A model generated the notes under the pieces. The model was not told the origin of the DNA. It searched no databases and saw nothing but the letters and a program-made list of their open reading frames with translations. DNA of 64,000 nt from Alphaproteobacteria bacterium (lineage in GTDB: Bacteria > Pseudomonadota > Alphaproteobacteria > MPNO01): positions 3,456,001 to 3,520,000 of the forward strand of contig OZ219866.1 in the NCBI GenBank assembly GCA_964291675.2. The letters are read 5' to 3'. The position numbers and the translations under genes were made by a program. Below, piece by piece: positions 4,039 to 26,790 of this stretch. The first letter of the stretch is position 1, and each line of letters opens with the position of its first letter.

Positions 4039-5493
4039 ATGGACAGCAACGACGGGAGCGAGCGTCGCGACCGGTGGGCGCGGCTGCGCTTCGCGGTGGT
4101 CGGGCCGCTTCTGGCCTCGCCGCCGCCGAAGGGGAAGCTGCGGGCCGAGCTGGAGCGGCTGGCCGGACGCGAGTGGGAACATCCGTCCGGCAAGGGGCCG
4201 GTGCGCTTCTCGGCCTCCACGATCGAGCGCTGGTACTACCAGGCGCGGGCGCAGGAGCAGGACCCGGTCAAGGCGCTTCGCCGAAAGCCACGGGCCGACA
4301 TCGGCCGCGAACGGGCGATATCGGCGGCACTGATCGAGGTGTTGCGCGATCAGTACCGGGCGCATCCGTCGTGGTCGGCACAGCTGCACCATGAGAACCT
4401 GGCGGCGCTGGTCGCGGCCGATCCGGCGCTCGGCCCGATGCCGTCCTATGCGACGCTCACCCGGGCGATGCGGGCTCGCGGGCTGGTGCGCAAGCGCCGG
4501 CGCAAGTGGCACGAGAGCGAGGCGCGGCCGCCTGTCCAGGCCCGCGAGGTACTGAGCTACGAGGTCACGCGCAGCCACGCCCTGTGGCACAGCGATATGC
4601 ATACCGCCAAGTGTCGTGTGCTGACGGCCTCGGGCGAGTGGAAGACGCCGATCCTTCTGGGCTTTCTCGACGACCACTCCCGGCTCGGCTGCCACCTTCA
4701 GTGGTATCTCGCCGAGACCGCAGAGGTCTTCGTCCATGGGCTGTGCCAGGCGTTGATGAAGCGGGGCCTGCCGCGGTCCCTGCTGACCGACAACGGCTCG
4801 GCGATGACCGCCGGCGAGGTCGAGGAAGGGTTGCTCCGGCTCGGCATCGCGGGGGTCACGACGCTCGCGTACAGCCCGCATCAAAATGGAAAGATCGAGA
4901 CTTTCTGGGGCACGGTCGAATCACGCCTGATGGCCCAGCTCGAAGGCGTCGACGCGCTCACCCTGAAGATGCTCAACGACGCCACCGTCGCCTGGCTGGA
5001 GCAGGACTATCACCGCCGCGAGCACCGCGAACTCGGCATGTCGCCGCATCGGCGCCTCGCCGGGAGCGTCGACGCATCGCGGCCCTGCCCCGGCGCGGCC
5101 GAGCTCAAGGCGGCCTTCCGCATCACGAGGAAGCGCATGCTCCGGCGCTCGGACGGCACCGTCTCGGTCGAGAACATCCGCTACCAGATACCGCCGCCGT
5201 GGCGCCACCTGCGCGAGGCCTGGGTCCGCTATGCGCGCTGGGACCTCAGCAGCGTCGATCTGGTCGACGGCCGGGGCGGCGAACGGCTGTGCACGCTCTA
5301 TCCCCTCGACAAGCGCGGCAACGCCGATGGTGTGCGCCGTCCCATCGGCCCCGGCGACGACGATGGCAAGGGCGGCGAGGGGACAGGCGGACTGCCGCCG
5401 CTGCTCAAGAGCATGCTCGACGCGCAGGCTGCAACCGGCCTGCCGCCGGCATGGCTTGCCTTCGATGACACCCGCGATGATGGAGAACGCTGA
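4039..5493 (+). CDS. DDE (rve) transposase/integrase, Mu/IS481/IS21-like
   Basis: N-terminal HTH (SASTIERWY); catalytic LWHSD, LLTDNGSA, NGKIETFW; C-terminal DGTVSVENIRY. Confidence 0.9.
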   Translation: MDSNDGSERRDRWARLRFAVVGPLLASPPPKGKLRAELERLAGREWEHPSGKGPVRFSASTIERWYYQARAQEQDPVKALRRKPRADIGRERAISAALIEVLRDQYRAHPSWSAQLHHENLAALVAADPALGPMPSYATLTRAMRARGLVRKRRRKWHESEARPPVQAREVLSYEVTRSHALWHSDMHTAKCRVLTASGEWKTPILLGFLDDHSRLGCHLQWYLAETAEVFVHGLCQALMKRGLPRSLLTDNGSAMTAGEVEEGLLRLGIAGVTTLAYSPHQNGKIETFWGTVESRLMAQLEGVDALTLKMLNDATVAWLEQDYHRREHRELGMSPHRRLAGSVDASRPCPGAAELKAAFRITRKRMLRRSDGTVSVENIRYQIPPPWRHLREAWVRYARWDLSSVDLVDGRGGERLCTLYPLDKRGNADGVRRPIGPGDDDGKGGEGTGGLPPLLKSMLDAQAATGLPPAWLAFDDTRDDGER

Positions 5494-6326
5494 TGAACCG
5501 CGAACACCTCACCCTGTACGGGCTCAAGTGGAACCCGTTCGCCCCTGACCTCCCGGTCGACAGCCTGATGGCGACTGGCGCCGTCGACAGCTTCTGCCTC
5601 AGGATCGAACGCCATCTCGTGCGCCACGGCGGCTTCGCACTGATCGCCGGAGAGCCCGGAACCGGAAAGAGCGTTGCCCTGCGCCTGCTCGCCCACCGGC
5701 TCGGGCGATGCGACGGGCTCAGGGTCGCCGCCATCACCCACCCGTCCTCGAGACTGTCGGACTTCTACCGCGAGATCGGCGAGCTGTTTGGCGTCGACCT
5801 GCTGTACAACAATCGCTGGGCCAGCTTCAAAAACCTGCGCCAGCGCTGGCTCGCGCATCTCGATGACACCCGCATGCGCCCGGTGTTGCTCATCGACGAG
5901 GCCCAGGAACTGCTGCCCTCGGTGTTCTCCGAGATCCGCCTGCTCGCGTCGACCGACTTCGACTCGCGCGCCATCCTCTCCGTCGTCTTCGCCGGTGACA
6001 ACCGCCTGCTCGACCGGCTCCGCCAGCCCGACCTGCAGCCCATCGCCTCGCGTATCCGACAGCGTCTGCTGATGACCCGGACCGAGGACGCCGACCTGGC
6101 CGGCCTGCTCGACCATCTGCTCGAAGAGGCCGGCAATCCGGCGCTGATGACCGCCGGGCTCAGGGACACCCTCGTCACCCATGCCGCAGGAAACCCCAGG
6201 GCACTCACCGTCATGGCTGATGCCGTGCTCGCAGCCGGTGCCGAGAAGGATCGCGAGGTGCTCGACGAGAAGCTCTTCATCGAGACCCTCGGCGAGGCAC
6301 CGCCAGCCAGGCGGGCCCGGCGATGA
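5493..6326 (+). CDS. ExeA-like AAA+ ATPase (transposition helper)
   Basis: YGLKWNPF, Walker A GEPGTGKS, Walker B LLIDEAQ, GNPRAL; TGATG coupling to the transposase. Confidence 0.85.
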   Translation: MNREHLTLYGLKWNPFAPDLPVDSLMATGAVDSFCLRIERHLVRHGGFALIAGEPGTGKSVALRLLAHRLGRCDGLRVAAITHPSSRLSDFYREIGELFGVDLLYNNRWASFKNLRQRWLAHLDDTRMRPVLLIDEAQELLPSVFSEIRLLASTDFDSRAILSVVFAGDNRLLDRLRQPDLQPIASRIRQRLLMTRTEDADLAGLLDHLLEEAGNPALMTAGLRDTLVTHAAGNPRALTVMADAVLAAGAEKDREVLDEKLFIETLGEAPPARRARR

Positions 6327-7312
6327 CCGGCTTCCCGACACGGCCACCGGCCGAACTCGAGGAGCGGCCGCGGGAGCGGCAGTGGCTGGTCGATGCCCTG
6401 TGGAGCGAACAGGGGGTCGGCATCGTCGGCGGCGAGCCCAAGTGCGGCAAGTCCTTCCTCGCGCTGGACCTCGCCGTCGCGGTGGCTGCAGGAGTGCCCT
6501 GCCTGCGCCACTTCCGCCCCGCGGCAAGCGGCACCGTGTTGCTCTTCGCCGCCGAGGACGCCGGTCACATCGTGCGCGACCGCCTCAAGGGCATCGCCCG
6601 GGCCGCCGGCGCCGACTTCGAGGCCCTCGACATCGCCGTCATCGACGTGCCCACGCTCCGCCTCGATCATCGCCTCGACCGGCAGCGGCTGCTGGAGACC
6701 GTCGAACGGATCGGACCGCGCCTCCTCGTCCTCGATCCCCTGGTCCGCCTGCATGGCGTCGACGAGAACGCGGTTGCGGAAGTCGCTCCCATCCTCGGCT
6801 TCCTGCGCGACCTGCAGCGCCGCTTCGGGACCGCTGTGCTGCTCGTCCACCACGCTCGCAAGAGTGGCGCCAGCCGCCCCGGCCAGGCGCTGCGCGGCAG
6901 CAGCGAGCTGCATGCCTGGGGCGACAGCAATCTCTACCTGCGCCGGCGCGACGGGCAGATCGTCATGACCGCCGAGCATCGCGCCGCACCCGGCCTCAAC
7001 AATATCGAGATCGAGCTTGCCGATGACGGCGAAGGACCAGCGCTGCAGCTCCGGCGGACAGGACCTCACCAGGCTCCGCCGCAGCCGGACAGCGCCGAAC
7101 AGCGGATCGCCCAGGTGCTCGCGACAGCCGAATCCCCACTCGTGCAGTCCGAGATCCGAAAACGCGCCGGGGTACGCAACGCGACTGTCTCCGCGGCACT
7201 GCACGGGCTTGTGCGCGAGGGACGGGTCGAGCGCGGGACGGGAGGTCGCTACCGCTTCCTCGGAACCGCGGCGAACCAAGCCGACAACCCGACGGACAGC
7301 CACAACCCGTAG
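6323..7312 (+). CDS. AAA_25/RepA-like RecA-fold helicase with C-terminal winged helix
   Basis: QWLVDALW, GGEPKCGKS, LLVLDPL, LLVHHARK, LRGSSEL; ATGA overlap. Confidence 0.8.
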   Translation: MTGFPTRPPAELEERPRERQWLVDALWSEQGVGIVGGEPKCGKSFLALDLAVAVAAGVPCLRHFRPAASGTVLLFAAEDAGHIVRDRLKGIARAAGADFEALDIAVIDVPTLRLDHRLDRQRLLETVERIGPRLLVLDPLVRLHGVDENAVAEVAPILGFLRDLQRRFGTAVLLVHHARKSGASRPGQALRGSSELHAWGDSNLYLRRRDGQIVMTAEHRAAPGLNNIEIELADDGEGPALQLRRTGPHQAPPQPDSAEQRIAQVLATAESPLVQSEIRKRAGVRNATVSAALHGLVREGRVERGTGGRYRFLGTAANQADNPTDSHNP

Positions 7313-7327
7313 GCGAAGCAGCCCCTC

Positions 7328-7381
7328 TTCCCGTTCCCGTTCCGGCGAACCCTTAAGCGTTGCAGGGAACGGGAACGGGAA
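7328..7381. repeat. Perfect 16-bp inverted repeat built of GGGAAC hexamers
   Basis: TTCCCGTTCCCGTTCC (7328-7343) / GGAACGGGAACGGGAA (7366-7381). Confidence 0.85.
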
Positions 7382-7694
7382 CACCAGCGCACAATGCCCC
7401 ACGAAACTGCCTGAAGCGATCGGCCAATGGCCGAAAGCTCTGCTTACGGCCATGGCAGCCCTCTGGCGCGGGGACGGCGGCGGGTCACCCGAAGGGCCGT
7501 AGCGGAGCGAAGGAGCCGCGAAGCGGCTTGAAGCGCCGACGGCCTCGCGACACTCCCCGCCCGGCCTTCCTGCAAACGGCAGACGATCCCCATCGAATAA
7601 CGCGAAATCCGCACCATCAAACAACGTGCGCGCGCTCACTGTTCCGATGGGGGGCGTTTGGTGGGTCTGAGTGCTTGGGAAGTGGGCCCTTGTT

Positions 7695-7724
7695 AAGTGT
7701 CCACTTAGCGGCAAGTGGACACTT
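7695..7724. promoter_or_regulatory. 12-bp inverted repeat over the tnpA start region
   Basis: AAGTGTCCACTT-N6-AAGTGGACACTT. Confidence 0.55.
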
Positions 7725-8146
7725 GGCCGATGTCGGTTGCGAGTGAGAAGCCGGGCGCGGGAAGCGGTGAGACGGCCGATCGGCGGCGCCGTCGGTGGAG
7801 CGAGGCTCAGAAGCGCCAGATCGTCGCGGAGAGCCATGAGCCTGGGGTTTCGGTGTCGGTCGTTGCGCGGCGTTACAACGTCAATGCCAACCAGGTCTTC
7901 ACCTGGCGTCGGCGGTTCCGCGAGGCGGCGCGCGACGCCGGGGCTGGCCGGTTGGTGCCGGTGGTGGTCGAAGCGCCTTGCGACGGGGAGGCCGGCGCGT
8001 CGGCGCCGTGCCGGTCGTCCGGGGACGTTGTCGCGGCGGCGGGGCGGATCGAGATTGCGCTGGCGTGCGGCGCGCGTGTGATCGTCGGCCGGGCGGTGGA
8101 CGGTGTGGCTCTGGCCCGGGTTCTTGCGGTTCTGGATCGGCGATGA
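7715..8146 (+). CDS. tnpA: IS66 TnpA (HTH)
   Basis: RRRRWSEAQKRQIVAES...VARRYNVNANQVFTWRR; start may be ATG 7730. Confidence 0.9.
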   Translation: MDTWPMSVASEKPGAGSGETADRRRRRWSEAQKRQIVAESHEPGVSVSVVARRYNVNANQVFTWRRRFREAARDAGAGRLVPVVVEAPCDGEAGASAPCRSSGDVVAAAGRIEIALACGARVIVGRAVDGVALARVLAVLDRR

Positions 8147-8490
8147 TCCCGGTTCCGGGTGGTGTGCGGGTGTGGCTGGCGACCGGGGTGACGGACATGC
8201 GTCGCGGCATGAACACGCTGGCGCTGCAGGTCCAGGAGGATCTCGGGCGCGACCCTCACGCGGGCGATCTCTACGTTTTCCGGGGCCGTCGCGGCGACCT
8301 GATCAAGATTCTCTGGCACGACGGGGTTGGGATCTCGCTGTATGCCAAGCGGCTTGAGCGGGGCCGGTTCCAGTGGCCGACCACGTCTGGGGGCGCGGTG
8401 TCGATCGGCGCGGCGCAGCTCGGCTACCTGCTGGAAGGGATCGACTGGCGGAATCCGGTTCGGACCTGGCGGCCGTCGCGGGCGGGCTGA
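8143..8490 (+). CDS. tnpB: IS66 TnpB accessory protein
   Basis: MIPVPGGVRVWLATGVTDMRRG...LYAKRLERGRFQWP. Confidence 0.92.
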   Translation: MIPVPGGVRVWLATGVTDMRRGMNTLALQVQEDLGRDPHAGDLYVFRGRRGDLIKILWHDGVGISLYAKRLERGRFQWPTTSGGAVSIGAAQLGYLLEGIDWRNPVRTWRPSRAG

Positions 8491-9971
8491 TCGGCGGGGG
8501 AGCCGTGCGGTCGGCGCGATTGTTGTAGCGCCGAATCGGGTGCTGTGATTCGATTCCGCCAATGACCGGCGGATCCAACATTGCATCTCTGAAGGCGGCG
8601 CTTGCGGCGGCCGAGGCGCGGGCCGCGAACGCCGAGGCGAAGGTGTCGGACGCCGAGGCGGAGATCGCTTTCCTCAAGCTGGCGGTCGAGAAGCTCCGGC
8701 GCGAGCTCTACGGGCAGCGCTCGGAGCGCAAGCAGCGGCTTCTCGACCAGCTCGAGCTGCAACTCGACGAGCTTGAGGCGAACGCGACGGAGGACGAGCT
8801 GGCGGCCGAGCAGGCGGCGGCCGGCACGACCGAGGTCAAGGGGTTCACGCGGCGCAAGCCGGCCCGCAAGCCGTTCCCGGCGCATATTCCGCGCGAGCGG
8901 AAAGTGGTTCCGCCGCCGACATTCTGCGCGTGCTGCGGCTCGGAGAAGCTGTCGAAGATCGGCGAGGACGTGACCGAGACGCTGGAGGCGATCCCGCGCC
9001 AGTGGAAGGTGATCCAGACGGTGCGCGAGAAGTTCACCTGCCGGGCTTGCGAGAAGATCGGCCAGCCGCCGGCGCCGTTCCACCCGACGCCGCGGGGCTG
9101 GGCTGGCCCCAACCTGCTGGCGACGATCCTGTTCGAGAAGTACGGGCAGCACCAGCCGTTGAACCGCCAGCGCGACCGCTACGCGAGGGAGGGTATCGAT
9201 CTCAGCCTGTCGACCCTGGCCGACCAGGTGGGCGCGTGCACGGTGGCGCTGAAGCCGCTGCACGATCTGATCGAGGCCCATGTCATGGCGGCGGAACGCC
9301 TGCATGGCGACGACACCCCGGTGCCGGTGCTGGCCAGGGGCAGGTGCGCCACCGGGCGGGCCTGGGTCTATGTGCGCGATGACAGGCCGTTCGGCGGTCC
9401 GGATCCGCCGGCGGCGCTGTTCCGCTACGCGCGGGACCGGTCCGGCGCTCACCCGGTCGCGCATCTGGAGACCTTCGCCGGCATCCTCCAGGCCGACATC
9501 TACGCCGGCTACAACGCCCTCTATGTGGCCGGGAGATTGCCCGGGCCCGTGATCGAGGCTGCGTGTTGGGCGCATTCGCGAAGGAAGTTCTTCGATCTCG
9601 CCGACATCGCGGCCGGGAAGAGGCGCGGCAAGGACCCGCCGCCGGTCTCGCCGCTCGCGCTGGAGGCGGTGAAGCGGATCGACGTGCTGTTCGATATCGA
9701 GCGCGGGATCGTCGGCAAGTCCGCGGAGGAGCGCCTCGCCGTGCGCCGGGAGTTGAGCGCGCCGGTGCTGGCCGAACTCAAGGAGTGGATGCGGGCCGAG
9801 CGCGTGAAGCTGTCGAAACATGCCCCGGTGGCCAAGGCGATGGACTACATGCTCAGGCGCTGGGAGCTGTTCGCCCGCTTCCTCGACGACGGCCGCATCT
9901 GCCTCACCAACAATGCCGCCGAGAGGGCGCTCAGAGGTATTGCGACGATGGAGTCATTCTGCACCCCTTCT

Positions 9972-12044
9972 TCAAGTGTCTGAAAACATTGACATCTGAT
10001 CCCGACATGAAGCGCGACGCGGGTCTTTCCGCAGTGCCAGGGCGTTGGCGACCCGCTCGGAATGGAGGTCTTTGGCCCTGATTTGCCAGGGCGCTCCGGG
10101 AACGAGTTGCGTGGCAGGTAGCGTTCCATCCTCGATCAGGCGCCTGAGGGTATGGCTGGTCGTGCCCAACTCTTTCGCCGCCTCGGTCATGGTGCGCCAG
10201 TCGCCCTGCTTGTCCGCTGAGAGGTAGCCGTCGATCCCGTTCACACGCCGGATCGATCCGACCCGGTGAGCGGTCCAACTCTTGTGCTGCCCGGTCCGCA
10301 TACCCATCCGGTTGAGCGACGCGGCGATATGTTCGTCCGACCATCGCCCGGCCATGCTGCGTATCACTGCCAGAGCTTCCTCGGGCGTTCGGCAGCCATG
10401 TTCGCCGCTCTTGGGCTTGCGGACCCTGAGACGGGAATGACGGCCACCCATCCAGTGGATCGTCAGCAGGACGTCACGCGCCTCTTCGTCGACATCGACG
10501 ATTATGCCCATGATCAGGGTGCGCACGAGACGCTGGCGGGCGCGCATGCTCACCCCGGGCGCGTTCCAGGCGGCCTTCAGGTCGTCGGCAAGTCCGGCCA
10601 GGTCGGGGACAGTGGGCCGCGGCGACGGCATCGCGCCCAGCCTTGCTTCGCACGCCTGGACGCGTCGAAGCGCTGCCTCCCAACTCTTCTCCAGCTCGGC
10701 GGCGATCAGCCGGTTGTCCGGATCGCAGGCGGCGTAGCGCCGCTCGGCGAGCGCCGCCTCGTAGCGGGCTTGCTGCAGATCCAGCTCGGCCACCCGTTGC
10801 TGTTCGGAAAGACCCTCCGCGTTCATCCGCTCGGCTTCCAACGAGGCTTCCACCGCCATGGGCTCCACGACGCGGAGGATCTCATCGGCAACGGCCGCAT
10901 CCACACGCGCACCCCCGAACCCCAGACAGGGCTCTAGCTCGAGCTGGAGGTGTCGCCGATTGCAGCGGTAGACAGGATTGCCGGGCGTGCGACCGGAATA
11001 GGCAACGCTCATCGTGCGTCCGCAGCGTGCGCAACTGAGGAGGCCGCCAAGAAGCGCCCGCCCGCCGCGCCCCGACTTCGTGCCCCCCGCCTTGCCGAAG
11101 GCATTGGCGGCGAGCTGCGCCTGGTTGCGCTCGAACTCCGGCCAGTCGATGTAGCCCTCGTGATGGTCCTTCAGCACGACCTCCCATTCCGCCATCGGCT
11201 TGCGGTGTCCATAGCTCTTGCGCACGCGCCCGTCGACGATCTCGGTCCGCCGCTCGCTTTTGCCGTAAGCGTAGACCCCGGCGTAGAAAGGGTTCTTCAA
11301 CACCGAAATTACGTTGCGATAGCGGATCGGCGTCCAGTCGAAGGAGACCATTGTCCTGCCATCCGACGGGCGTGGGAAGCAAAGCTTCTGCCCGCTCAGC
11401 GCCAGCAACACCTGCCGCGCGCTGCCAAGCTCGCGAAACCGGGCGAATACCTGACGGATCGCTTCCTGAACCCGAATGTCGGGGTCCAGCCCCAGCCCGG
11501 CCTCGGGATGCCAGACGTAGCCGATCGGGACGCTGATGCGAAGCTCGCCGCGGGCGGCCTTGGAGCGGGCGGCCTCGAACATCCGAGCGCGCAGAACGCC
11601 GAGTTCGAACTCGCTGATCTGGCCCTTCATGCCGAGCAGCAGACGATCGTTGGGGTGGCGAGGATCGTAGATGCCATCCTGGTCGATGACGCGTGCCTCG
11701 ACGAGACCGCAGAGCTCGAGAAGATGGTGCCAGTCCCGGCCGTTGCGAGAGACCCGCGAAGCCTCGAAACAAAGCACGGCTCCAACGTCCCCGGCGCACA
11801 GCCAGGCGACGAGGCGCTCGAAACCGGGCCGCGCAACGGCACCGTCCGCCGACAGGCCCTGATCGTCGTCGATGACTTCGACCCGGGCAAAGCCGTGCCC
11901 GCGCGCCACATCGACGAGATCGTATTGGCGGCGCTGGCTCTCCAGATTGTTCCGCATCTGCTGGGGCGTGGACTGACGGACATAGACCACGGCCTTGCGC
12001 GTCAACACCGATCGCGGCAACGCTTCAGCGACGCCCATCGTCAT
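9972..12044 (-). CDS. Large serine recombinase (resolvase + recombinase + Zn ribbon + C-terminal HTH)
   Basis: AVVYVRQST, EASRVSRN, NPFYAG, CARCG, DPDNRLIAAELE. Confidence 0.92.
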   Translation of the reverse strand: MTMGVAEALPRSVLTRKAVVYVRQSTPQQMRNNLESQRRQYDLVDVARGHGFARVEVIDDDQGLSADGAVARPGFERLVAWLCAGDVGAVLCFEASRVSRNGRDWHHLLELCGLVEARVIDQDGIYDPRHPNDRLLLGMKGQISEFELGVLRARMFEAARSKAARGELRISVPIGYVWHPEAGLGLDPDIRVQEAIRQVFARFRELGSARQVLLALSGQKLCFPRPSDGRTMVSFDWTPIRYRNVISVLKNPFYAGVYAYGKSERRTEIVDGRVRKSYGHRKPMAEWEVVLKDHHEGYIDWPEFERNQAQLAANAFGKAGGTKSGRGGRALLGGLLSCARCGRTMSVAYSGRTPGNPVYRCNRRHLQLELEPCLGFGGARVDAAVADEILRVVEPMAVEASLEAERMNAEGLSEQQRVAELDLQQARYEAALAERRYAACDPDNRLIAAELEKSWEAALRRVQACEARLGAMPSPRPTVPDLAGLADDLKAAWNAPGVSMRARQRLVRTLIMGIIVDVDEEARDVLLTIHWMGGRHSRLRVRKPKSGEHGCRTPEEALAVIRSMAGRWSDEHIAASLNRMGMRTGQHKSWTAHRVGSIRRVNGIDGYLSADKQGDWRTMTEAAKELGTTSHTLRRLIEDGTLPATQLVPGAPWQIRAKDLHSERVANALALRKDPRRASCRDQMSMFSDT

Positions 12045-12210
12045 CCTCCTTCACCGGGGCGGTCGCCGCTTCCAGAAGCAACCCGGCCACTGCGCTCACC
12101 ACCGCGTCTCGTTCCTCCGAGCTCAGACCGCGCAGCGTCGGTGCGTCGAGCGGCATGCCGAGCTGTCGGGGTTCTCTCGGCGGTCGCGCTGTTACAGGCA
12201 AAGACTTCAT
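12025..12210 (-). CDS. Small protein overlapping the recombinase start
   Basis: MKSLPVTARPPREPRQLGMPLD...LLLEAA with GAGGAG Shine-Dalgarno; same frame as the longer 12025..12543 ORF. Confidence 0.6.
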   Translation of the reverse strand: MKSLPVTARPPREPRQLGMPLDAPTLRGLSSEERDAVVSAVAGLLLEAATAPVKEDDDGRR

Positions 12211-12526
12211 CGCGCTCCTCTCCGCTAACGGTTCCGTCATCGGGGGAGCTATGTCGAAAACCTGGCCGACGAGAAGCTCGTGAAGTGCGGCGAGGGCGGC
12301 CGGGGAGGCACGCGGCGCGCCGATCTCCATGCCGGCGCATGACGCAGGATCAAGCATCCAGGCGGGTATCTTGATGATCAGCCCCGGCTCTACCTCGACG
12401 GAGGCCATGAGGCCGTCTGCACGCTGTTCGATAACTTCAGGGCGTACTCGCCGACCGAACAGTGCGTGCCAGCGGTAGTGGATGACGCAATCCTGCCCGA
12501 TATGGGCAGAATGAATGCGCGATCGC
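12211..12526 (-). CDS. Accessory ORF body whose start lies at the other element end (completed on excision)
   Basis: IHSAHIGQDCVIHYRWHALFGRRV...IPAWMLD; in frame with ATG at 9957 across attP. Confidence 0.55.
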
Positions 12527-12856
12527 CCTGGGCCGCAAGTCATGGCTCTTCGCCGGCTCGGACCGCGGCGGCGTACGCGCGGCGGCGATGTACACGCTCA
12601 TCGGCACCGCCAAGCTCAACGATGTCGATCCGCAGGCCTGGCTCGCCGACGTGCTAGACCGAATCGCGGACACGCCGCAGACCAGGCTCGAAGAACTCCT
12701 CCCCTGGAACTGGGTTCGGGAACAGAAGCTCGATCAGGCCGCATAGAGCCTGCCCCCGCGAAGGCGGGGGCCAGATCGCACGCGGACCGTTTCGCTCCGA
12801 GCCAGCTGCTGCTCAAAATCAGACTGAATACCCCTGCGGTCTTCGGCGGATGCTTA

Positions 12857-14773
12857 GAGTGCCAGGCTAACTGGTGGAAGGGTAGCGGGTGAAAGTCCCG
12901 CGAAACGAAAGGAGTAGCCAACCACGTTTCTCCGCGAGCCGTGCATCGTCGGCCGTGAGGCCGGGGGTGAAGCGTCGGTAGCGGTGCATGCGGGCAGGGA
13001 TATTGAGCGCCGAAAACGAGATGGTCCGAAGTGCCGAGACGTTTAAGCTCGTCGAAGGCAACATCGTCCACACCGCAATATGGCGAGGTGTGGGGGAGCT
13101 TCGCGGCGTCGGGGACCCCATGCACGCATGTAAGCCCACCACCGGGACCTGGGAGGTCTTCACACTGCCCCGATGGTCGTATCGGGGCCGCGAAGGGAAG
13201 GAGGTATCCGAAGCCTGAGATGAACGGAGTGAAGAAGTCGGACGGGGCCATAGTACCGTCGAAGCGGGCGAACAACGGGGCGCGAGCCTCTGCGGAGTCC
13301 GTGGAGGAAAGGGCCTCGACCAAGGGGAATCCGCGAAGCGAAAGCACGCGCCGGACGCAGAGCCGGGAAAGCGTGACCCAGGCCGCCGAGCGGATACGTC
13401 AAGCTGCAACGAGGAAACCGCAGGAGAAACTGACGGCGCTCCTGCATCATGTCACGCCGGACGCGCTGCGCTGGGCCTTCCACGCGCTGAAGCGGGACGC
13501 CGCGGCGGGGGTGGACGGCATGACATGGGCCGAGTACGCGAACGGGCTGGAAGAGCGGCTGCTCGACCTGCACCGGCGCGTACAGTCCGGGGCGTATCGG
13601 GCGCCGCCGGTCCGGCGGGTAGAGATACCCAAGCCGGATGGCGGGACACGACCGCTCGGCGTCGCCGCGCTGGAGGACAAGATCGTCCAGAAGGCGGTGA
13701 CGGAGATCATCCTGACGCCGATCTACGAGCCGGTCTTCCTCGGCTTCAGCTACGGGTTCCGACCGGGGCGCGGGGCGCATGACGCACTCGACGCGCTTGC
13801 TGTCGCCATCAATCGGCGGAAGGTCAACTGGGTGGTCGACTGCGACATCCAAAGGTTTTTCGATTCTGTTTCGCGGGACTGGCTCGTCCGGTTCCTTGAG
13901 CACCGGATCGGGGATCGGCGGGTGATCCGGCTGATCGCCAAGTGGCTGAAAGCCGGCGTCATGGTCGATGGCCGGTGGGAGGACACGCAGCAGGGCACGC
14001 CGCAAGGGGCGATCGTCTCAGCCACGCTGGCGAACGTGTATCTGCACTATGTCCTCGACCTCTGGTTCCATCGCAAGTGGCGGCCCGAAAGGGCAGATGG
14101 CGATGCCATCATCGTACGCTACGCCGATGATGTGGTCGTCGGCTTCCAGCGCAAGAGGGACGCGGAACGCTTCCTGCATGCGCTTGGGGAACGGCTCGGC
14201 CAGTTCGATCTGGCCCTGCATCCGGCCAAGACCCGGCTCATCGAGTTCGGCAGGTTCGCGGAAGTGGACCGCCGGGCACGGGGGCTGGGCCGCCCGGAGA
14301 CGTTCGACTTCCTGGGCTTCACGCACTATTGCAGGACGACCAGGAGCGGGCAGTTCGGGCTCGGACGCAAGCCCGTTGCAAAGCGGATGAGCCGCACCCT
14401 GAAGCGCATCGCGGAGGTTCTGCGGCGGCGCAGGCACCACGACCTCCACGAGGTCGCCCGGTGGCTGGGGCGGGTAGTCAACGGATGGCTGAACTACTAC
14501 GCCGTCCCGACGAGTGCCCGCTTCCTGCGAAGCTTCACCTACATCCTGAAACGGATATGGCTGAAGGCGCTGCGCCGACGGTCGCAACGGGATCGCTTCA
14601 GCTGGCAACGGCTGCAAGCCCTGGTTGACCGATACTGGCCCAAGCCATGGATCCGACACCCGTGGCCGGGGCAGCGGTTCGACGTCAAATACCCGAGGTA
14701 GGAGCCGGATGGCTTAACGGCCACGTCCGGATCTGTGCGGGGGGCGCCGGGAAACCGGCGTCCCTACCGCGAC
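12857..14773 (+). mobile_element. Group II intron 1 (1,917 nt) in IS66 right inverted repeat
   Basis: 5' GAGTG (GUGYG variant); domain V GAGCCGGATGGCTTAACGGCCACGTCCGGATC; domain VI ending CCCTACCGCGAC; EBS1 loop TAAGC 13044-13048 pairs with exon GCTTA. Confidence 0.88.
13220..14701 (+). CDS. ltrA: Group II intron reverse transcriptase/maturase (no endonuclease domain seen)
   Basis: AAGVDG, IPKPDGGTRPLG, FSYGFRPGR, GTPQG, RYADD, FDFLGF; start uncertain. Confidence 0.93.
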   Translation: MNGVKKSDGAIVPSKRANNGARASAESVEERASTKGNPRSESTRRTQSRESVTQAAERIRQAATRKPQEKLTALLHHVTPDALRWAFHALKRDAAAGVDGMTWAEYANGLEERLLDLHRRVQSGAYRAPPVRRVEIPKPDGGTRPLGVAALEDKIVQKAVTEIILTPIYEPVFLGFSYGFRPGRGAHDALDALAVAINRRKVNWVVDCDIQRFFDSVSRDWLVRFLEHRIGDRRVIRLIAKWLKAGVMVDGRWEDTQQGTPQGAIVSATLANVYLHYVLDLWFHRKWRPERADGDAIIVRYADDVVVGFQRKRDAERFLHALGERLGQFDLALHPAKTRLIEFGRFAEVDRRARGLGRPETFDFLGFTHYCRTTRSGQFGLGRKPVAKRMSRTLKRIAEVLRRRRHHDLHEVARWLGRVVNGWLNYYAVPTSARFLRSFTYILKRIWLKALRRRSQRDRFSWQRLQALVDRYWPKPWIRHPWPGQRFDVKYPR

Positions 14774-14774
14774 C

Positions 14775-15032
14775 CTTGCGCAGTTCGGATTGCGCGTTGA
14801 AGTAGTCGACGCAACTGCTGACAAAGATATTCGCGCCGGCCCTGGCGGTCGCCTCGATTGCCGATTCGAACATGCGCGGCGCCTTGTTCACGCGCCCGGT
14901 CTCCGACACCTCGGCAAGGATGCCCTGCGGCACGCGATCCAGAGCCCGCATCACCCGGGTTGTGACGTGTGGTAGCCCACCACTCGCCCCTTCGTAAGCG
15001 CGCCACCAGCGCACTTTCCACATAGCCAGCAC
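14775..15032 (-). pseudogene. Hypothetical ORF truncated at the IS66 end
   Basis: Open frame (..MRALDRVPQGILAEVSETGRVNKAPRMFESAIEA..) running into the IRR; no family recognised. Confidence 0.3.
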
Positions 15033-15067
15033 CCCCTCTCGGGGGCCGCGGCTTCGTTCAAACAGGT

Positions 15068-15097
15068 TCAGCAGGCTCGCTCACGCGAACCTGCTGA
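15068..15097 (-). terminator. Stem-loop downstream of the FGE gene
   Basis: Minus strand TCAGCAGGTTCGC-GTGA-GCGAGCCTGCTGA. Confidence 0.45.
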
Positions 15098-15166
15098 GCC
15101 CTAAAGATTTGCGCGGCTCCCCTTCCATGCCCGGTTCCCGGGTCGGGCCCGCGAAATAATCCCGCG

Positions 15167-15181
15167 GGGGGCTCCGCCCCC
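15167..15181 (-). other. GC hairpin with GGA loop, DGR target-recognition-like
   Basis: Minus strand GGGGGC-GGA-GCCCCC, about 27 nt after the FGE stop codon. Confidence 0.65.
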
Positions 15182-15208
15182 GGACCCCCGAGGTAAACAA
15201 GTAAGGAC

Positions 15209-16159
15209 TCAAGGCGTAAGCGTCCGGGCAACGCGGAAGCCGAAGGTGACGACCCGATTCCCGACACTGTACCCGAGGCGGATGGCGGAACGGAGGAACC
15301 ACGGTATGTTGCTCCACGAACCGCCGCGCAATATGCGCTCCCCGCAATCACCGCCCGCCACCCAAGCGCTGCCGTCCGACGGTGCGCCCGCATAGTCACT
15401 GTGCCAGCAGTCCTCGACCCATTCCGATACATTGCCCGACATGTCATGCAAGCCGAAACCGTTCGCCGCAAATGAACCAGCCGGAGCCGTTTCACGGCCG
15501 TCCCAGCGGCTGCCGCAGCCGCGGCAGTTCGCCCGGTTCCGGCCCACCGAATCCCCCCAGCTATAGCGCGTCCGCGTCTTCGCGCGCGCCGCATATTCCC
15601 ACTCCGCCTCCGTCAACAGCCGGTACTCCTTCCCCGTCTTCCGCGACAGCCACGCGACATACGACCGCGCTTCGTTCCAGTTCACATGGATGACCGGCCG
15701 ACTTCCACGGCCCCAGCCCTTGTCATCGGGGCGATACCCGTCGCACCCGCCAGCGGATACGCAGGTATCCCATTCCGCAAACGTCACCTCGTGTTTGCCC
15801 ACCGCAAAGGGTTGCGAGATCATCACCTCATGCTGCAGGACTTCATCTCCGTCACGGCCTACTTCCGACCTCGGCGAGCCCATGACGAACGAACCCGCCG
15901 GCACCACCACCATTTCCGGACAGGACGGGCAATCCCGGAATGTTTCCCCCGCCTTCGGCCCCACTTCCGCTTCGGCCAGCAGCGCCGTCGGAACAAACCC
16001 CGCACGCCCGCCTGCCTCGACACGGCCCGCTGCGTCATGCAGCGCAATCTCTTCTGCTGCCTTTACAACATCTTCAACGCTTCCGGCTGTTCCGTGGCTG
16101 GCAAGAAGCGAAGCGGCTACGAAGGCCACGGCGGAGAGGGTACGGGCTATGAGTTTCAT
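15209..16159 (-). CDS. Secreted FGE-sulfatase (SUMF1)/CLec-fold protein, probable DGR target
   Basis: Signal peptide; FRDCPSCPEMVVVPAGSFVMGS, RLLTEAEWEYAARA, NGFGLHDMSGNVSEW, RGGSW...GFRVARTL. Confidence 0.9.
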   Translation of the reverse strand: MKLIARTLSAVAFVAASLLASHGTAGSVEDVVKAAEEIALHDAAGRVEAGGRAGFVPTALLAEAEVGPKAGETFRDCPSCPEMVVVPAGSFVMGSPRSEVGRDGDEVLQHEVMISQPFAVGKHEVTFAEWDTCVSAGGCDGYRPDDKGWGRGSRPVIHVNWNEARSYVAWLSRKTGKEYRLLTEAEWEYAARAKTRTRYSWGDSVGRNRANCRGCGSRWDGRETAPAGSFAANGFGLHDMSGNVSEWVEDCWHSDYAGAPSDGSAWVAGGDCGERILRGGSWSNIPWFLRSAIRLGYSVGNRVVTFGFRVARTLTP

Positions 16160-16246
16160 GTTGGCACCATCATCAGATCGTTTGTCGTCGGCGCGATCCG
16201 CTTCAGTATCTCATTGTACTGCTCTTCGTCCTCGTCCCACTCAGGC
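16156..16246 (-). pseudogene. 3' remnant of upstream gene cut by IS66 copy B
   Basis: PEWDEDEEQYNEILKRIAPTTNDLMMVPT*, with TGA overlapping the FGE ATG (ATGA). Confidence 0.45.
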
Positions 16247-16779
16247 GTAACCCTCCGCTGAGGACCGCCTTTTGTCAATCGGCTTTCAATACTGACCCCC
16301 TATATCGGCGTGCAAAATTAACCCCCTGAGAGGCACGGCGGAGGTTGTCCCGGTAGCCAATAGGGGGGACCCGCGCGGCTTCGTGTAGCGCCTTGCGTTA
16401 CGCGAAGCGAAGCCGCGTGGGGGGTCCCTGTTGGCTACCGGGGTATCGCCCTCGGAAGACGCAGTTGGTTGTTCGCCGGCTCCGACCGCGGCGGCGCCCG
16501 TGCGGCGACGATGTACACGCTCATCGGCACCGCCAAGCTCAACGATGTCGATCCTCAGGCCTGGCTCGCCGATGTGCTCGGCCGCATCGCCGAGACGCCG
16601 CAGAGCCGGCTCGACGAACTCCTCCCCTGGAACTGGGTCCCGGAGCAAAAGCTCGATCGCGCAGCATAGAGCCGGCCCCCGCGAAGGCGGGGCCGGACCC
16701 CGCCCGGCGCTTAATCGCCAGCATCGCCCCGCCGACAAACTCAGCCCGAATTAGCCCGCGGTGTTCGGCGGATGCTTAC
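16247..16779 (+). mobile_element. IS66 copy B, internally deleted (533 bp): IRL + IS21 end + tnpC 3' end + IRR
   Basis: GTAACCCTCCGCTGAGGACCGCC; GIALGRRSWLFAGSDRGG...LLPWNW (about 16442-16669); TTCGGCGGATGCTTAC. Confidence 0.85.
16273..16442. mobile_element. IS21-family terminal remnant with long hairpin
   Basis: TGTCAATCGGC start; two ATCGGC..AA.A.T.ACCCC repeats; hairpin CCCGGTAGCCAA (16349-16360) / TTGGCTACCGGG (16431-16442). Confidence 0.65.

Positions 16780-24807: not shown

Positions 24808-26790
<1,983 letters not shown>

What the first reader, a model, noticed from the sequence alone, without database searches (positions are those of the whole stretch)
15160..16159. Orphan DGR target gene carried as transposon cargo
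Seen: the 3' end of the secreted FGE-sulfatase gene reads TGG AGC AAC ATA CCG TGG TTC CTC CGT TCC GCC ATC CGC CTC GGG TAC ... AAT CGG GTC GTC ACC TTC GGC TTC CGC GTT GCC CGG ACG CTT. NNC codons fall where DGR templates normally have AAC. A pyrimidine-rich tract and a GGGGGC-GGA-GCCCCC hairpin follow. Known: DGRs diversify CLec/FGE C-termini by adenine mutagenesis and use a downstream GC hairpin, often with a GRA loop. No TR, avd or DGR RT was found in the window. Inference: this is a remote DGR target (or frozen variant) being spread by an IS66 composite, i.e. a mobile plug-in target cassette.
Basis: partly seen in the sequence, partly recalled or inferred. Interest (0 to 1): 0.82.

Follow-up and report, generated by a model that had tools for sequence, protein, structure and literature searches.

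The report
Frozen orphan DGR target gene
A secreted binding-protein gene still carries the DNA marks of a gene once rewritten by a diversity-generating retroelement, but its genome has no such retroelement; the once-variable tip is now fixed and occurs nearly unchanged in sister species, always among insertion-sequence fragments.

Summary
Window 15209-16159 (-) encodes a 316-aa protein with a signal peptide and an FGE-sulfatase (C-type-lectin-like) domain. Its last ~113 nt look like a DGR variable region (VR). The end motif GTTGCCCGGACGCT, a TTACCTCGGGGGTCC tract and a GGGGGC-GGA-GCCCCC hairpin match almost base for base the VR 3' ends of complete DGRs (target-bAvd-RT-TR) in a same-genus genome (G017) and in unrelated taxa. 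At the 11 AAC codons of the G017 template the window has 10 NNC codons (gene-wide 32% of codons end in C; p=1e-4).

The DGR itself is missing. The 4.8-Mb genome has no template repeat, no bAvd and no DGR reverse transcriptase; its 7 RTs are all group II introns. Five sister species carry 98-99% identical copies, and they also lack bAvd and a TR.

The VR is frozen. Across 27 close protein variants that cover it, six genomes and four metagenome assemblies, it changes only at R290G, G296R and two synonymous sites.

The cassette (15145-16272) lies among IS66 fragments at different chromosomal sites in each species. It is therefore an orphan, fixed DGR target moved with IS66 debris. It is not an active remote target, and it is not bounded by two whole IS66 copies.

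The parts
15209..16159 (-). Gene for a 316-aa secreted FGE-sulfatase / C-type-lectin-like protein (P0001). The closest solved structure is PvdO.
   Evidence: ORF and translation; PF03781 E 6.6e-54; PvdO 5hha E 7.2e-59, T. denticola variable protein 2y3c E 5.9e-15
15219..15331 (-). VR-equivalent segment: 113 nt that align without gaps to the template repeat of the G017 DGR. The variable codons 283-306 are at 15242-15313.
   Evidence: 18 of 28 TR-A positions mismatched against 16 of 85 other positions; 10 of 11 AAC positions are NNC
15219..15232 (-). IMH-like end of the VR, GTTGCCCGGACGCT. It is identical to the VR ends of G017; the core GCCCGGACGCT is also shared by L039, L020 and L129. The templates read GCCCGCACGCT instead.
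   Evidence: unique in the own genome
15182..15196 (-). Conserved post-stop motif TTACCTCGGGGGTCC, shared with the VRs of complete DGRs
   Evidence: one copy in the own genome
15167..15181 (-). GC hairpin GGGGGC-GGA-GCCCCC. Four sister copies have an 8-bp stem, CCGGGGGC-GGA-GCCCCCGG.
   Evidence: direct reading; not scored as an intrinsic terminator
15145..16272 (-). Cassette shared at 98-99% nucleotide identity with five same-genus species
   Evidence: shared block 15145-16159 in G009, G010 and G011, to 16257 in G019, and 15099-16272 in G012
16445..16779 (+). Lone IS66 right-end fragment. 16466-16669 encodes the IS66 C-terminal element; a GTAAGC-type end sits at about 16779.
   Evidence: PF13817 E 1.8e-19; 87% identical to 12522-12769; end read
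7640..12856 (+). IS66-family element: tnpA 7715-8146, tnpB 8143-8490, tnpC 8562-9983, and a C-terminal element at 12522-12746. It is interrupted by a 2.8-kb serine-recombinase segment.
   Evidence: Pfam; repeat map. The outer ends are approximate.
12836..14776 (+). Group II intron (3 genome copies at 99.8-99.9%) with RT 13031-14701. It is not a DGR RT.
   Evidence: RVT_1 plus GIIM; Rfam group-II-D1D4-6 at 12892-13118, E 1.3e-50; copies
16349..16442 (.). Imperfect inverted repeat (42-nt arms, 79% complementary) between the gene's upstream region and the IS66 fragment. It is a repeated element.
   Evidence: other copies at about 91% in the genome and in sister genomes

Best explanation
This is an orphan, frozen target gene of a diversity-generating retroelement (DGR). 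The protein is a secreted, non-catalytic FGE/C-type-lectin-fold binder. Its ligand-binding tip was once written by adenine-mutagenic retrohoming from a template repeat of the AAC-rich type still found in a same-genus genome.

The gene kept the cis signals of a target: an IMH-like end, the TTACCTC-G5 motif and a GC hairpin. It was separated from its template, Avd and RT. It then spread between species of the genus as a ~1.1-kb passenger in IS66-derived DNA. In these genomes nothing diversifies it any more, so it encodes one fixed binding specificity under weak constraint.

Shown: the cis signals and their identity to real VRs; the absence of TR, Avd and DGR RT; the invariance of the VR; the IS66 fragments at the cassette borders; and the different genomic sites.

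Inferred: that a DGR wrote this VR; that IS66 machinery was the vehicle; and that the protein binds a ligand.
For: 1. Complete DGRs with homologous targets exist.
- G017 (same genus) has three target-bAvd-RT-TR loci. TR/VR mismatches fall at TR adenines in 17 of 19, 15 of 17 and 17 of 19 cases.
- G017 also has a fourth, remote target with no avd beside it (19 of 22).
- L039 (16 of 17) and L090 (14 of 15) are complete DGRs too.

2. The window's 3' end shares IMH, motif and hairpin with these VRs nearly base for base. The same module follows VRs in L129, L134 (two), L148 (two) and L136.

3. Codon signature.
- 10 of 11 AAC positions are NNC, p 9.5e-5.
- Control on 50 same-spacing genes (the window, G017 and 48 homologue loci): the 7 with the 3' motif, window included, average 9.9 of 11; the 43 without it average 5.9 of 11; background C3 is 0.37 and 0.39.

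4. No DGR in the genome.
- BLAST of the VR finds only itself.
- The exhaustive match-or-A scan gives a best non-self score of 70 of 90, with 33 exact matches. Real TRs score 89-90 of 90 and noise is 61 or less in positive controls.
- bAvd: 0 hits.
- RVT_1, and the L039 DGR RT used as a query, hit only 7 group II intron RTs.

5. Orphan state in relatives. 98-99% copies occur in G009, G010, G011, G012 and G019. None has bAvd. None has a second VR-like sequence. G009 is a closed, 100%-complete genome.

6. Frozen VR.
- Of 29 other cluster members at 90% identity or more, 27 cover the VR. The only changes are G296R (4 members) and R290G (2 members).
- Among six genomes there are 24 variable coding sites. 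Three lie in codons 283-306, and two of those are synonymous third positions.
- Contigs of 4 runs from 4 studies show one VR difference, the synonymous AGT>AGC.

7. Mobility.
- The cassette border at 15145 abuts the same IS66 tnpA fragment in G009, G011 and G019, and a tnpC fragment in G012.
- The neighbouring genes differ between species.
- pS between species copies is 0.034 or less.
Against: - No cognate template was found anywhere, so past DGR action is inferred from homology and codon pattern, not observed.
- The excess of mismatches at TR adenines (p 2e-5) is not specific. Any diverged homologue would mismatch AAC codons in these loops.
- 6 of 43 homologues without the motif also reach 9 or more of 11 NNC.
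- The hairpin does not meet the published phage-DGR description of a 7-10 bp stem with a 4-nt GRNA loop (passages of PMC3240598 and PMC6602519). It has 6 bp here, 8 bp in sister copies, and a 3-nt loop.
- The genome is 93.7% complete, so a plasmid or phage could be missing.
- Contigs cannot show rare variants.
- The IS66 vehicle is pieced together from junctions in different genomes. In this window the left IS66 part is absent, and no target-site duplication was sought.
- pN/pS of 0.41-1.3 rests on few changes.
Confidence: 0.8

Rival explanations
1. It is an active remote target. A DGR elsewhere (an unassembled plasmid or prophage, or the missing ~6% of the genome) still rewrites this VR in trans, as G017 does for its fourth target.
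For: Trans-diversified remote targets exist in the genus (L123: 19 of 22 mismatches at TR-A with no avd nearby). They are also described in print (passages of PMC7517822, PMC10907252 and PMC6602519). The cis signals are intact. The genome is 93.7% complete.
Against: - No TR, bAvd or DGR RT was found in the own genome.
- No bAvd and no TR were found in the five sister genomes carrying the gene, including a closed one.
- The VR is the same in 27 close variants, six genomes and four metagenome assemblies. By contrast, the three G017 VRs all differ from one another.
- The window copy has lost one stem pair of the hairpin.
Confidence: 0.07
2. It is an ordinary PvdO/FGE-family periplasmic protein that was never a DGR target. 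The resemblance reflects shared ancestry of the protein family and GC-rich codon usage.
For: - The best solved match is PvdO (5hha, E 7.2e-59).
- The family is huge (7987 of 8000 scored candidates with E<=0.001).
- Only 2 of 80 homologue loci have a TR within the fetched flanks.
- The loops vary in all members.
Against: - The non-coding 3' module (about 45 nt after the stop) is shared with verified VRs from several phyla and is unique in the genome. Protein ancestry does not explain that.
- The IMH-like end carries the VR-type G, not the template-type C.
- The NNC signature separates motif-bearing genes from the rest at equal background C3.
Confidence: 0.08
3. It has the same origin as in the best explanation, but the cassette is now a functionless relic drifting towards a pseudogene, carried along only because it sits in repetitive IS DNA.
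For: - pN/pS is 0.41-1.3 among the six copies, with 15 non-synonymous and 9 synonymous variable sites.
- The hairpin is weakened here.
- GC3 is 0.72, against about 0.9 for neighbouring genes.
- Shortened or frame-shifted relatives appear among the protein hits (P0010, P0054, P0139, P0146).
Against: - The frame is intact and full length in all six genomes.
- 15 of the 29 other cluster members examined are 316 aa and two more are 318 aa.
- The stretch is held by contigs of 6 RNA libraries, and one metatranscriptome contig spans all of it. That does not prove transcription.
Confidence: 0.25

Closest known systems
DGR variable proteins with a C-type-lectin/FGE fold (Treponema denticola TvpA, PDB 2y3c; FGE-type targets of the complete DGRs in G017, L039 and L090)
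   Same: A C-terminal FGE-sulfatase domain with the variable residues in its last ~35 codons. An IMH-like end and a GC hairpin follow the stop. NNC codons sit at template AAC positions.
   Different: There is no cognate template, Avd or RT in the genome, and there is no variation of the VR.
Remote DGR targets and non-diversified paralogues of variable proteins (cyanobacteria, e.g. all3226 in PCC 7120, PMC7517822; incomplete loci shaped by transposons in Thiohalocapsa PB-PSB1, PMC10907252; passages read)
   Same: A target-type gene away from any RT, with transposases next to it. Those authors already proposed that a favourable variant can be set aside by transposition.
   Different: Those cases lie in genomes that still hold a DGR. 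Here the whole genome and five sister genomes lack one. The same frozen VR is shared across species, and the cis signals are still nearly intact.
PvdO of Pseudomonas aeruginosa (PDB 5hha)
   Same: The closest solved sequence relative: E 7.2e-59 over residues 67-314. It has the same RGxxW...GFRVAR scaffold.
   Different: PvdO is not known as a DGR target (recalled). No pyoverdine genes were looked for here. The 3' DNA module belongs to DGR targets, not to the protein family as a whole (6 clear cases among the window and 79 loci read).
BPP-1 phage DGR target signals (IMH plus hairpin/cruciform; Guo et al. 2011, PMC3240598, passages read)
   Same: A GC-rich inverted repeat a short distance after the VR. 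The stem sequence varies while pairing is kept: CCGG/CCGG, TCGG/CCGA, CCAG/CTGG and CCAAGG/CCTTGG.
   Different: The loop is 3-5 nt and not GRNA. An additional conserved TTACCTC-G5 motif lies between the stop and the stem. I did not see that motif in the passages I read.
IS66-family insertion sequences and IS derivatives that carry passenger genes
   Same: IS66 tnpA, tnpB, tnpC and C-terminal-element fragments border the cassette here and in four sister genomes.
   Different: No complete pair of ends around the cassette in this window. No intact transposase belongs to the cassette-bearing unit. Target-site duplication was not examined. That IS66 ends start with GTAA is recalled, not tested.

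Membership tests
DGR target (variable protein) gene | C-terminal C-type-lectin / FGE-fold domain holding the VR | tested here: met
   PF03781 E 6.6e-54; 2y3c variable protein E 5.9e-15
DGR target (variable protein) gene | A cognate template repeat in the same genome that differs from the VR almost only at template adenines | tested here: not met
   Only a self hit. The match-or-A scan gave a best non-self score of 70 of 90, against 89-90 of 90 for real TRs. None was found in five sister genomes. The best foreign TR has 85.7% identity at non-A positions.
DGR target (variable protein) gene | IMH at the VR 3' end that differs from the template's IMH* | tested here: met
   GTTGCCCGGACGCT equals the VR ends of G017; the core GCCCGGACGCT is also shared by L039, L020 and L129. 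Their templates read GCCCGCACGCT.
DGR target (variable protein) gene | GC-rich inverted repeat shortly downstream of the VR (published for phage DGRs: 7-10 bp stem, 4-nt GRNA loop, 4-34 bp away) | tested here: inconclusive
   A hairpin is present about 36 nt after the IMH end (about 34 nt to the 8-bp sister stem). It has 6 bp and a GGA loop here, and 8 bp in four sister copies. It matches the hairpins of verified VRs of this lineage, but not the GRNA 4-nt loop rule.
DGR target (variable protein) gene | Variation concentrated in the VR among close relatives or reads | tested here: not met
   R290G, G296R and two synonymous changes only
Complete DGR | DGR-clade reverse transcriptase and accessory Avd in the genome | tested here: not met
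   bAvd 0 hits. The 7 RVT_1 hits are all group II intron RTs in two multicopy families; GIIM was confirmed on the window copy of each family. The L039 DGR RT query hits only those.
IS66 composite transposon | Two complete IS66 copies bracketing the cargo | tested here: not met
   One interrupted IS66 (7640-12856) and one right-end fragment (16445-16779), both in the same orientation, with a group II intron between the IS66 and the gene
IS66-derived passenger-carrying element | Cargo joined to IS66 sequence at conserved junctions in independent genomic sites | tested here: met
   The same tnpA-fragment/cassette junction occurs in G009, G011 and G019, and a tnpC fragment in G012. The neighbours are unrelated.
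IS66-derived passenger-carrying element | Both terminal inverted repeats and a target-site duplication around the unit | not tested
   Only a right end was read. A GTAAGCG at 14994 proved to lie in an unrelated intergenic repeat.
Catalytic formylglycine-generating enzyme | Pair of catalytic cysteines just after the GGS[FW] motif (positions recalled from the human enzyme) | tested here: not met
   Residues 273-316 contain no cysteine. Alignments to the bacterial FGE chains stop at the GGSW motif (residues 282-283).
Group II intron (neighbouring RT 13031-14701) | RT with maturase domain inside a ribozyme, in multiple copies | tested here: met
   RVT_1 plus GIIM; Rfam RF02005 E 1.3e-50; 3 copies at 99.8-99.9%

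The most novel reading that the evidence does not exclude
Targets and diversifiers circulate separately. The ~1.1-kb cassette (VR plus IMH plus TTACCTC-G5 motif plus hairpin) is a portable, DGR-ready socket. IS66-type elements spread it through a sponge- and coral-associated genus. A DGR of the matching lineage arriving later could re-adopt it in trans and restart diversification. G017 carries three such DGR copies and already rewrites one remote target. The conserved post-stop motif would then be a lineage-specific recognition signal beyond the known IMH and hairpin.
Probability: 0.15. Interest if true: 0.75.

Novelty: new variant of a known kind. Interest (0 to 1): 0.48.

Why it matters
DGR surveys start from the reverse transcriptase or from TR/VR pairs, so they cannot see target genes that have left their retroelement. 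This case shows that a DGR-written binding site can be fixed and then passed between species without the machinery.

It also gives a practical marker for finding such orphans and remote targets: the IMH-like end plus TTACCTC-G5 plus the hairpin. That module is unique in this genome and is shared with at least seven other DGR-bearing genomes or contigs.

In addition, it flags a conserved post-stop motif that may belong to target recognition in this DGR lineage.

Tried and rejected
- **Hairpin folding.** Single-sequence DNA folding of ten downstream regions gave weak z-scores (-0.9 to -4.2). It also gave competing pairings with the upstream G-run. I therefore rest on sequence conservation and on stem changes read directly, not on folding energy.
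- **Covariation count.** MAFFT misaligned the stems of unequal length, so no formal covariation count was made.
- **Possible IS66 left end.** A GTAAGCG at 14994 was rejected as an IS66 left end. The surrounding 14976-15115 is a dispersed repeat (at least 7 copies at 79% in G009), and in G009 one copy lies upstream of a Meth_synt_2 gene.
- **Wrong frame.** Pfam on the wrong frame of 16431-16754 found nothing. The right frame gave the IS66 C-terminal element.
- **L129.** Near the bAvd of the L020 genome, L129 yielded a second VR but no TR within 3.2 kb. Whether L020 is a remote target is left open.
- **A-position enrichment.** The excess of mismatches at TR adenines was judged non-specific. It was replaced by the NNC control on 50 genes.
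- **Reads.** Read laying used assembled contigs only. Parts without cover, and the many short pieces from paralogues at 15401-15472, 15581-15630 and 15872-15922, say nothing about rare variants.
- **Not examined.** No structure prediction or complex prediction was run. Supplementary tables of PMC7517822 and PMC8144416, which may list orphan or remote targets, were not seen.
- **Literature.** Two full-text searches and passages of five papers turned up no description of a DGR-free genome carrying a frozen target, or of the TTACCTC motif. This is not an exhaustive search.
Full report
**What is there.** The finding covers the minus-strand ORF 15209..16159. It encodes 316 residues. The N-terminus, MKLIARTLSAVAFVAASLLASHG, reads as a Sec signal (direct reading; no predictor was run). 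A full-length PF03781 FGE-sulfatase domain follows (E 6.6e-54).
- The closest solved relative is PvdO (5hha, E 7.2e-59). Catalytic FGEs and the Treponema denticola DGR variable protein (2y3c, E 5.9e-15) follow.
- The last 44 residues hold no cysteine. The catalytic cysteine pair of true FGEs, whose position I recall rather than tested, therefore has no counterpart. I read the protein as a binder, not an enzyme.

After the stop come GTCCTTACTTGTTTACCTCGGGGGTCC and the hairpin GGGGGC-GGA-GCCCCC (15167-15181).
- In the 4.8-Mb genome the 15-mer TTACCTCGGGGGTCC, the end motif GTTGCCCGGACGCT and the pattern GGGGGC-N3-4-GCCCCC each occur exactly once.
- The hairpin is not followed by a T-run and is not called a terminator.

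**Related loci show what these signals mean.** I fetched 80 homologue loci from species-representative genomes.
- Two of them (L039, L090) have a near-repeat of the gene's 3' end 1.6 kb downstream. Its mismatches fall on adenines of the second copy in 16 of 17 and 14 of 15 cases. Pfam shows target-bAvd-RT at both. These are complete DGRs.
- In the window's own genus, G017 has three bAvd genes. Each sits next to an FGE target and a template (17 of 19, 15 of 17 and 17 of 19 mismatches at template A). The three VRs differ from one another.
- G017 also has a fourth target, a 709-aa Sel1/PG-binding/ankyrin/FGE protein with no avd nearby, which matches the same template (19 of 22 at A).
- Aligned to these VRs, the window's 3' end is almost the same from the IMH-like end through the stop, the TTACCTC-G5 motif and the hairpin. 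G017 reads CCGGGGGC-GAA-GCCCCCGG. The templates diverge immediately after GCCCGCACGCT.
- The same module follows VRs in L129, L134 (two), L148 (two) and L136, and it follows the homologues L019, L020 and L047.
- Stem sequences differ while pairing is kept (CCGG/CCGG, TCGG/CCGA, CCAG/CTGG, CCAAGG/CCTTGG; read directly).

**Codon signature.** The 113 nt at 15219-15331 align without gaps to the G017 template.
- At its 11 AAC codons the window has 10 NNC codons, against 32.3% of codons ending in C gene-wide (p 9.5e-5). The exception, AAT, is AAC in four sister copies.
- As a control I scored the same 11 positions in the window, the G017 target and the 48 of the 80 homologue loci that have the same spacing, 50 genes in all. 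The 7 with the 3' motif (window and G017 included) average 9.9 of 11. The 43 without it average 5.9 of 11. Background C3 is alike, 0.37 and 0.39.
- Six of the 43 reach 9 or more. One of them (L049, 11 of 11) is probably a DGR target with another kind of 3' end.
- Mismatches are enriched at template adenines (18 of 28 against 16 of 85, p 2e-5). I give this little weight, because any diverged loop would mismatch AAC.

**The retroelement is absent.**
- BLAST of the VR against the own genome returns only itself.
- An exhaustive ungapped scan that accepts 'match or A' gives at best 70 of 90 elsewhere, with 33 exact matches, which is A-rich noise. The same scan scores real templates at 89-90 of 90, and noise at 61 or less.
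- bAvd has no hit.
- PF00078 finds 7 RTs in two multicopy families (3 and 4 copies). GIIM was confirmed on the window copy of each family. One sits in a ribozyme matched by Rfam at E 1.3e-50. A genuine DGR RT used as a query hits only these seven.
- bAvd is rare around this organism: 1 of 12 genomes in the genus and 2 of 78 in the order.
- A pattern for the template-type end found 16 metagenome and 7 viral loci. The best is 85.7% identical to the window's VR at non-A positions, so no cognate template was found.

**The VR is frozen.** The protein belongs to a 133-member cluster at 90% identity, and a second cluster has 24 members.
- I aligned the 30 sequences that were listed. Of the 29 others, 27 cover the VR, and within residues 283-306 they show only G296R (4 members) and R290G (2 members). 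Differences elsewhere are scattered.
- Five sister species (G009, G010, G011, G012, G019) carry the gene at 98-99% nucleotide identity.
- Among the six copies there are 24 variable coding sites, 15 non-synonymous and 9 synonymous. Three lie in the VR codons: G296R in one genome, and AGT>AGC and AAT>AAC, both synonymous.
- None of the five has bAvd or any second VR-like sequence.
- Contigs of four runs from four studies show a single difference in the VR, the same synonymous AGT>AGC.
- 20 of the 24 listed runs, from 14 studies and mostly sponge metagenomes, hold the stretch. 6 of them are RNA libraries, and one metatranscriptome contig spans all of it. That shows presence in an RNA library, not transcription.
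- pN/pS among copies is 0.41-1.3 on few changes. pS is 0.034 or less, which is low for different species and fits recent transfer (the comparison with typical between-species divergence is inference).

**The vehicle.** The block shared with sister species starts at 15145, about 20 nt beyond the hairpin. It runs to the start codon, and to 16272 in G012.
- In G009, G011 and G019 its 3' border abuts the same fragment of an IS66 tnpA (like window 7639/7784-7975, 79-84%). In G012 the upstream side abuts an IS66 tnpC fragment (like 9065-9283, 89%).
- The surrounding genes differ: branched-chain transporter, MaoC and IS3 in G009; cupin, Mutator, IS5 and Rieske in G019.
- In the window the cassette lies between two IS66 pieces in the same orientation. 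On one side is an IS66 (tnpA, tnpB, tnpC at 7715-9983, with a C-terminal element at 12522-12746) that is itself split by a 2.8-kb serine-recombinase segment and followed by a group II intron. On the other side is a lone right-end fragment (16466-16669, PF13817 E 1.8e-19).
- Put together, the junctions fit an IS66 whose middle (about 7976-9064) was replaced by the cassette and which then decayed differently in each genome. This is a reconstruction, not an observed intact element. It is not a composite of two whole IS66 copies.

**Comparison with what is known.**
- Remote targets, non-diversified paralogues with remnant template homology, and transposases near variable-protein genes have been described in cyanobacteria. 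Those authors proposed that transposition may set aside favourable variants (PMC7517822, passages).
- Transposon-shaped, incomplete and trans-acting DGR loci are described in Thiohalocapsa (PMC10907252, passages).
- IMH plus hairpin suffice to direct a DGR to a foreign gene when a cognate template is engineered (PMC3240598, abstract and passages).
- What is different here: the genome and five sister genomes have no DGR at all; one frozen VR is shared across species; the target signals survive nearly intact; and a conserved post-stop motif accompanies the hairpin in this DGR lineage.
- I did not find these points in two full-text searches and the passages read. Supplements were not available.

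**Verdict.** It needs two corrections: the VR is frozen rather than remotely served, and the vehicle is IS66-derived debris rather than a demonstrated composite. Confidence is 0.8. It is of moderate interest as a clean example, and as a source of a search marker for targets that RT-centred DGR surveys miss.

Noticed in passing
window 9939-12712: A 2.8-kb segment with a 690-aa large serine recombinase (9972-12044, minus strand) is present in 3 genome copies at 98%. Here it splits the IS66 tnpC gene. The repeat unit includes the IS66 C-terminal part, so the same insertion site may recur.
   Followed up: partly
window 12836-14776 and 25127-26638: There are two different group II intron families: 3 copies at 99.8-99.9% and 4 copies. 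The first intron starts at the right end of the IS66. Its copies share only 11-20 nt of upstream flank, as expected for a homing-site match.
   Followed up: partly
window 16273-16443: A repeated element holds an imperfect inverted repeat with 42-nt arms (16349-16442, 79% complementary). Other copies lie at G000:C2:9674-9844 and 2437-2554 (91%) and in sister genomes.
   Followed up: no
window 14976-15115: A dispersed ~130-nt repeat has at least 7 copies at 79% in G009. One copy lies upstream of a Meth_synt_2 gene, so it is intergenic and not an IS end.
   Followed up: partly
window 4039-7639: An element with an rve transposase, an AAA_22 ATPase and an AAA_25 ATPase. Its last 640 nt are 100% identical at three other genome sites, and it ends exactly where the IS66 sequence begins.
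   Followed up: no
L122 (G017:C6:8000-23000) and L123 (G017:C17:145000-157000): A same-genus genome holds three near-identical DGR cassettes flanked by IS3-type and DDE_Tnp_1 transposases, each with a different VR. It also holds a remote multidomain target next to an IS3 copy. The whole DGR therefore seems to multiply with IS elements there.
   Followed up: partly
L049:6299-7018: A Parabeggiatoa homologue has 11 of 11 NNC codons at the template-AAC positions with a background C3 of only 0.23, but it lacks the TTACCTC motif. It is probably a DGR target with a different 3' signal.
   Followed up: no
L134 and L148 (metagenome contigs): In each locus one template-type repeat is accompanied by two VR-type ends on opposite strands, each followed by the motif and a 10-bp hairpin with a GTCA loop. 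This looks like a two-target DGR of the same lineage.
   Followed up: no
window 14692-14773: A weak Rfam match to the sRNA family BjrC68 (19.8 bits, gathering score 39, E 0.089) lies at the 3' end of the group II intron. It is probably intron domain V/VI rather than an sRNA.
   Followed up: no
window 15209-16159: The gene's GC3 is 0.72, against about 0.9 for the neighbouring metabolic genes, which is consistent with foreign origin.
   Followed up: no
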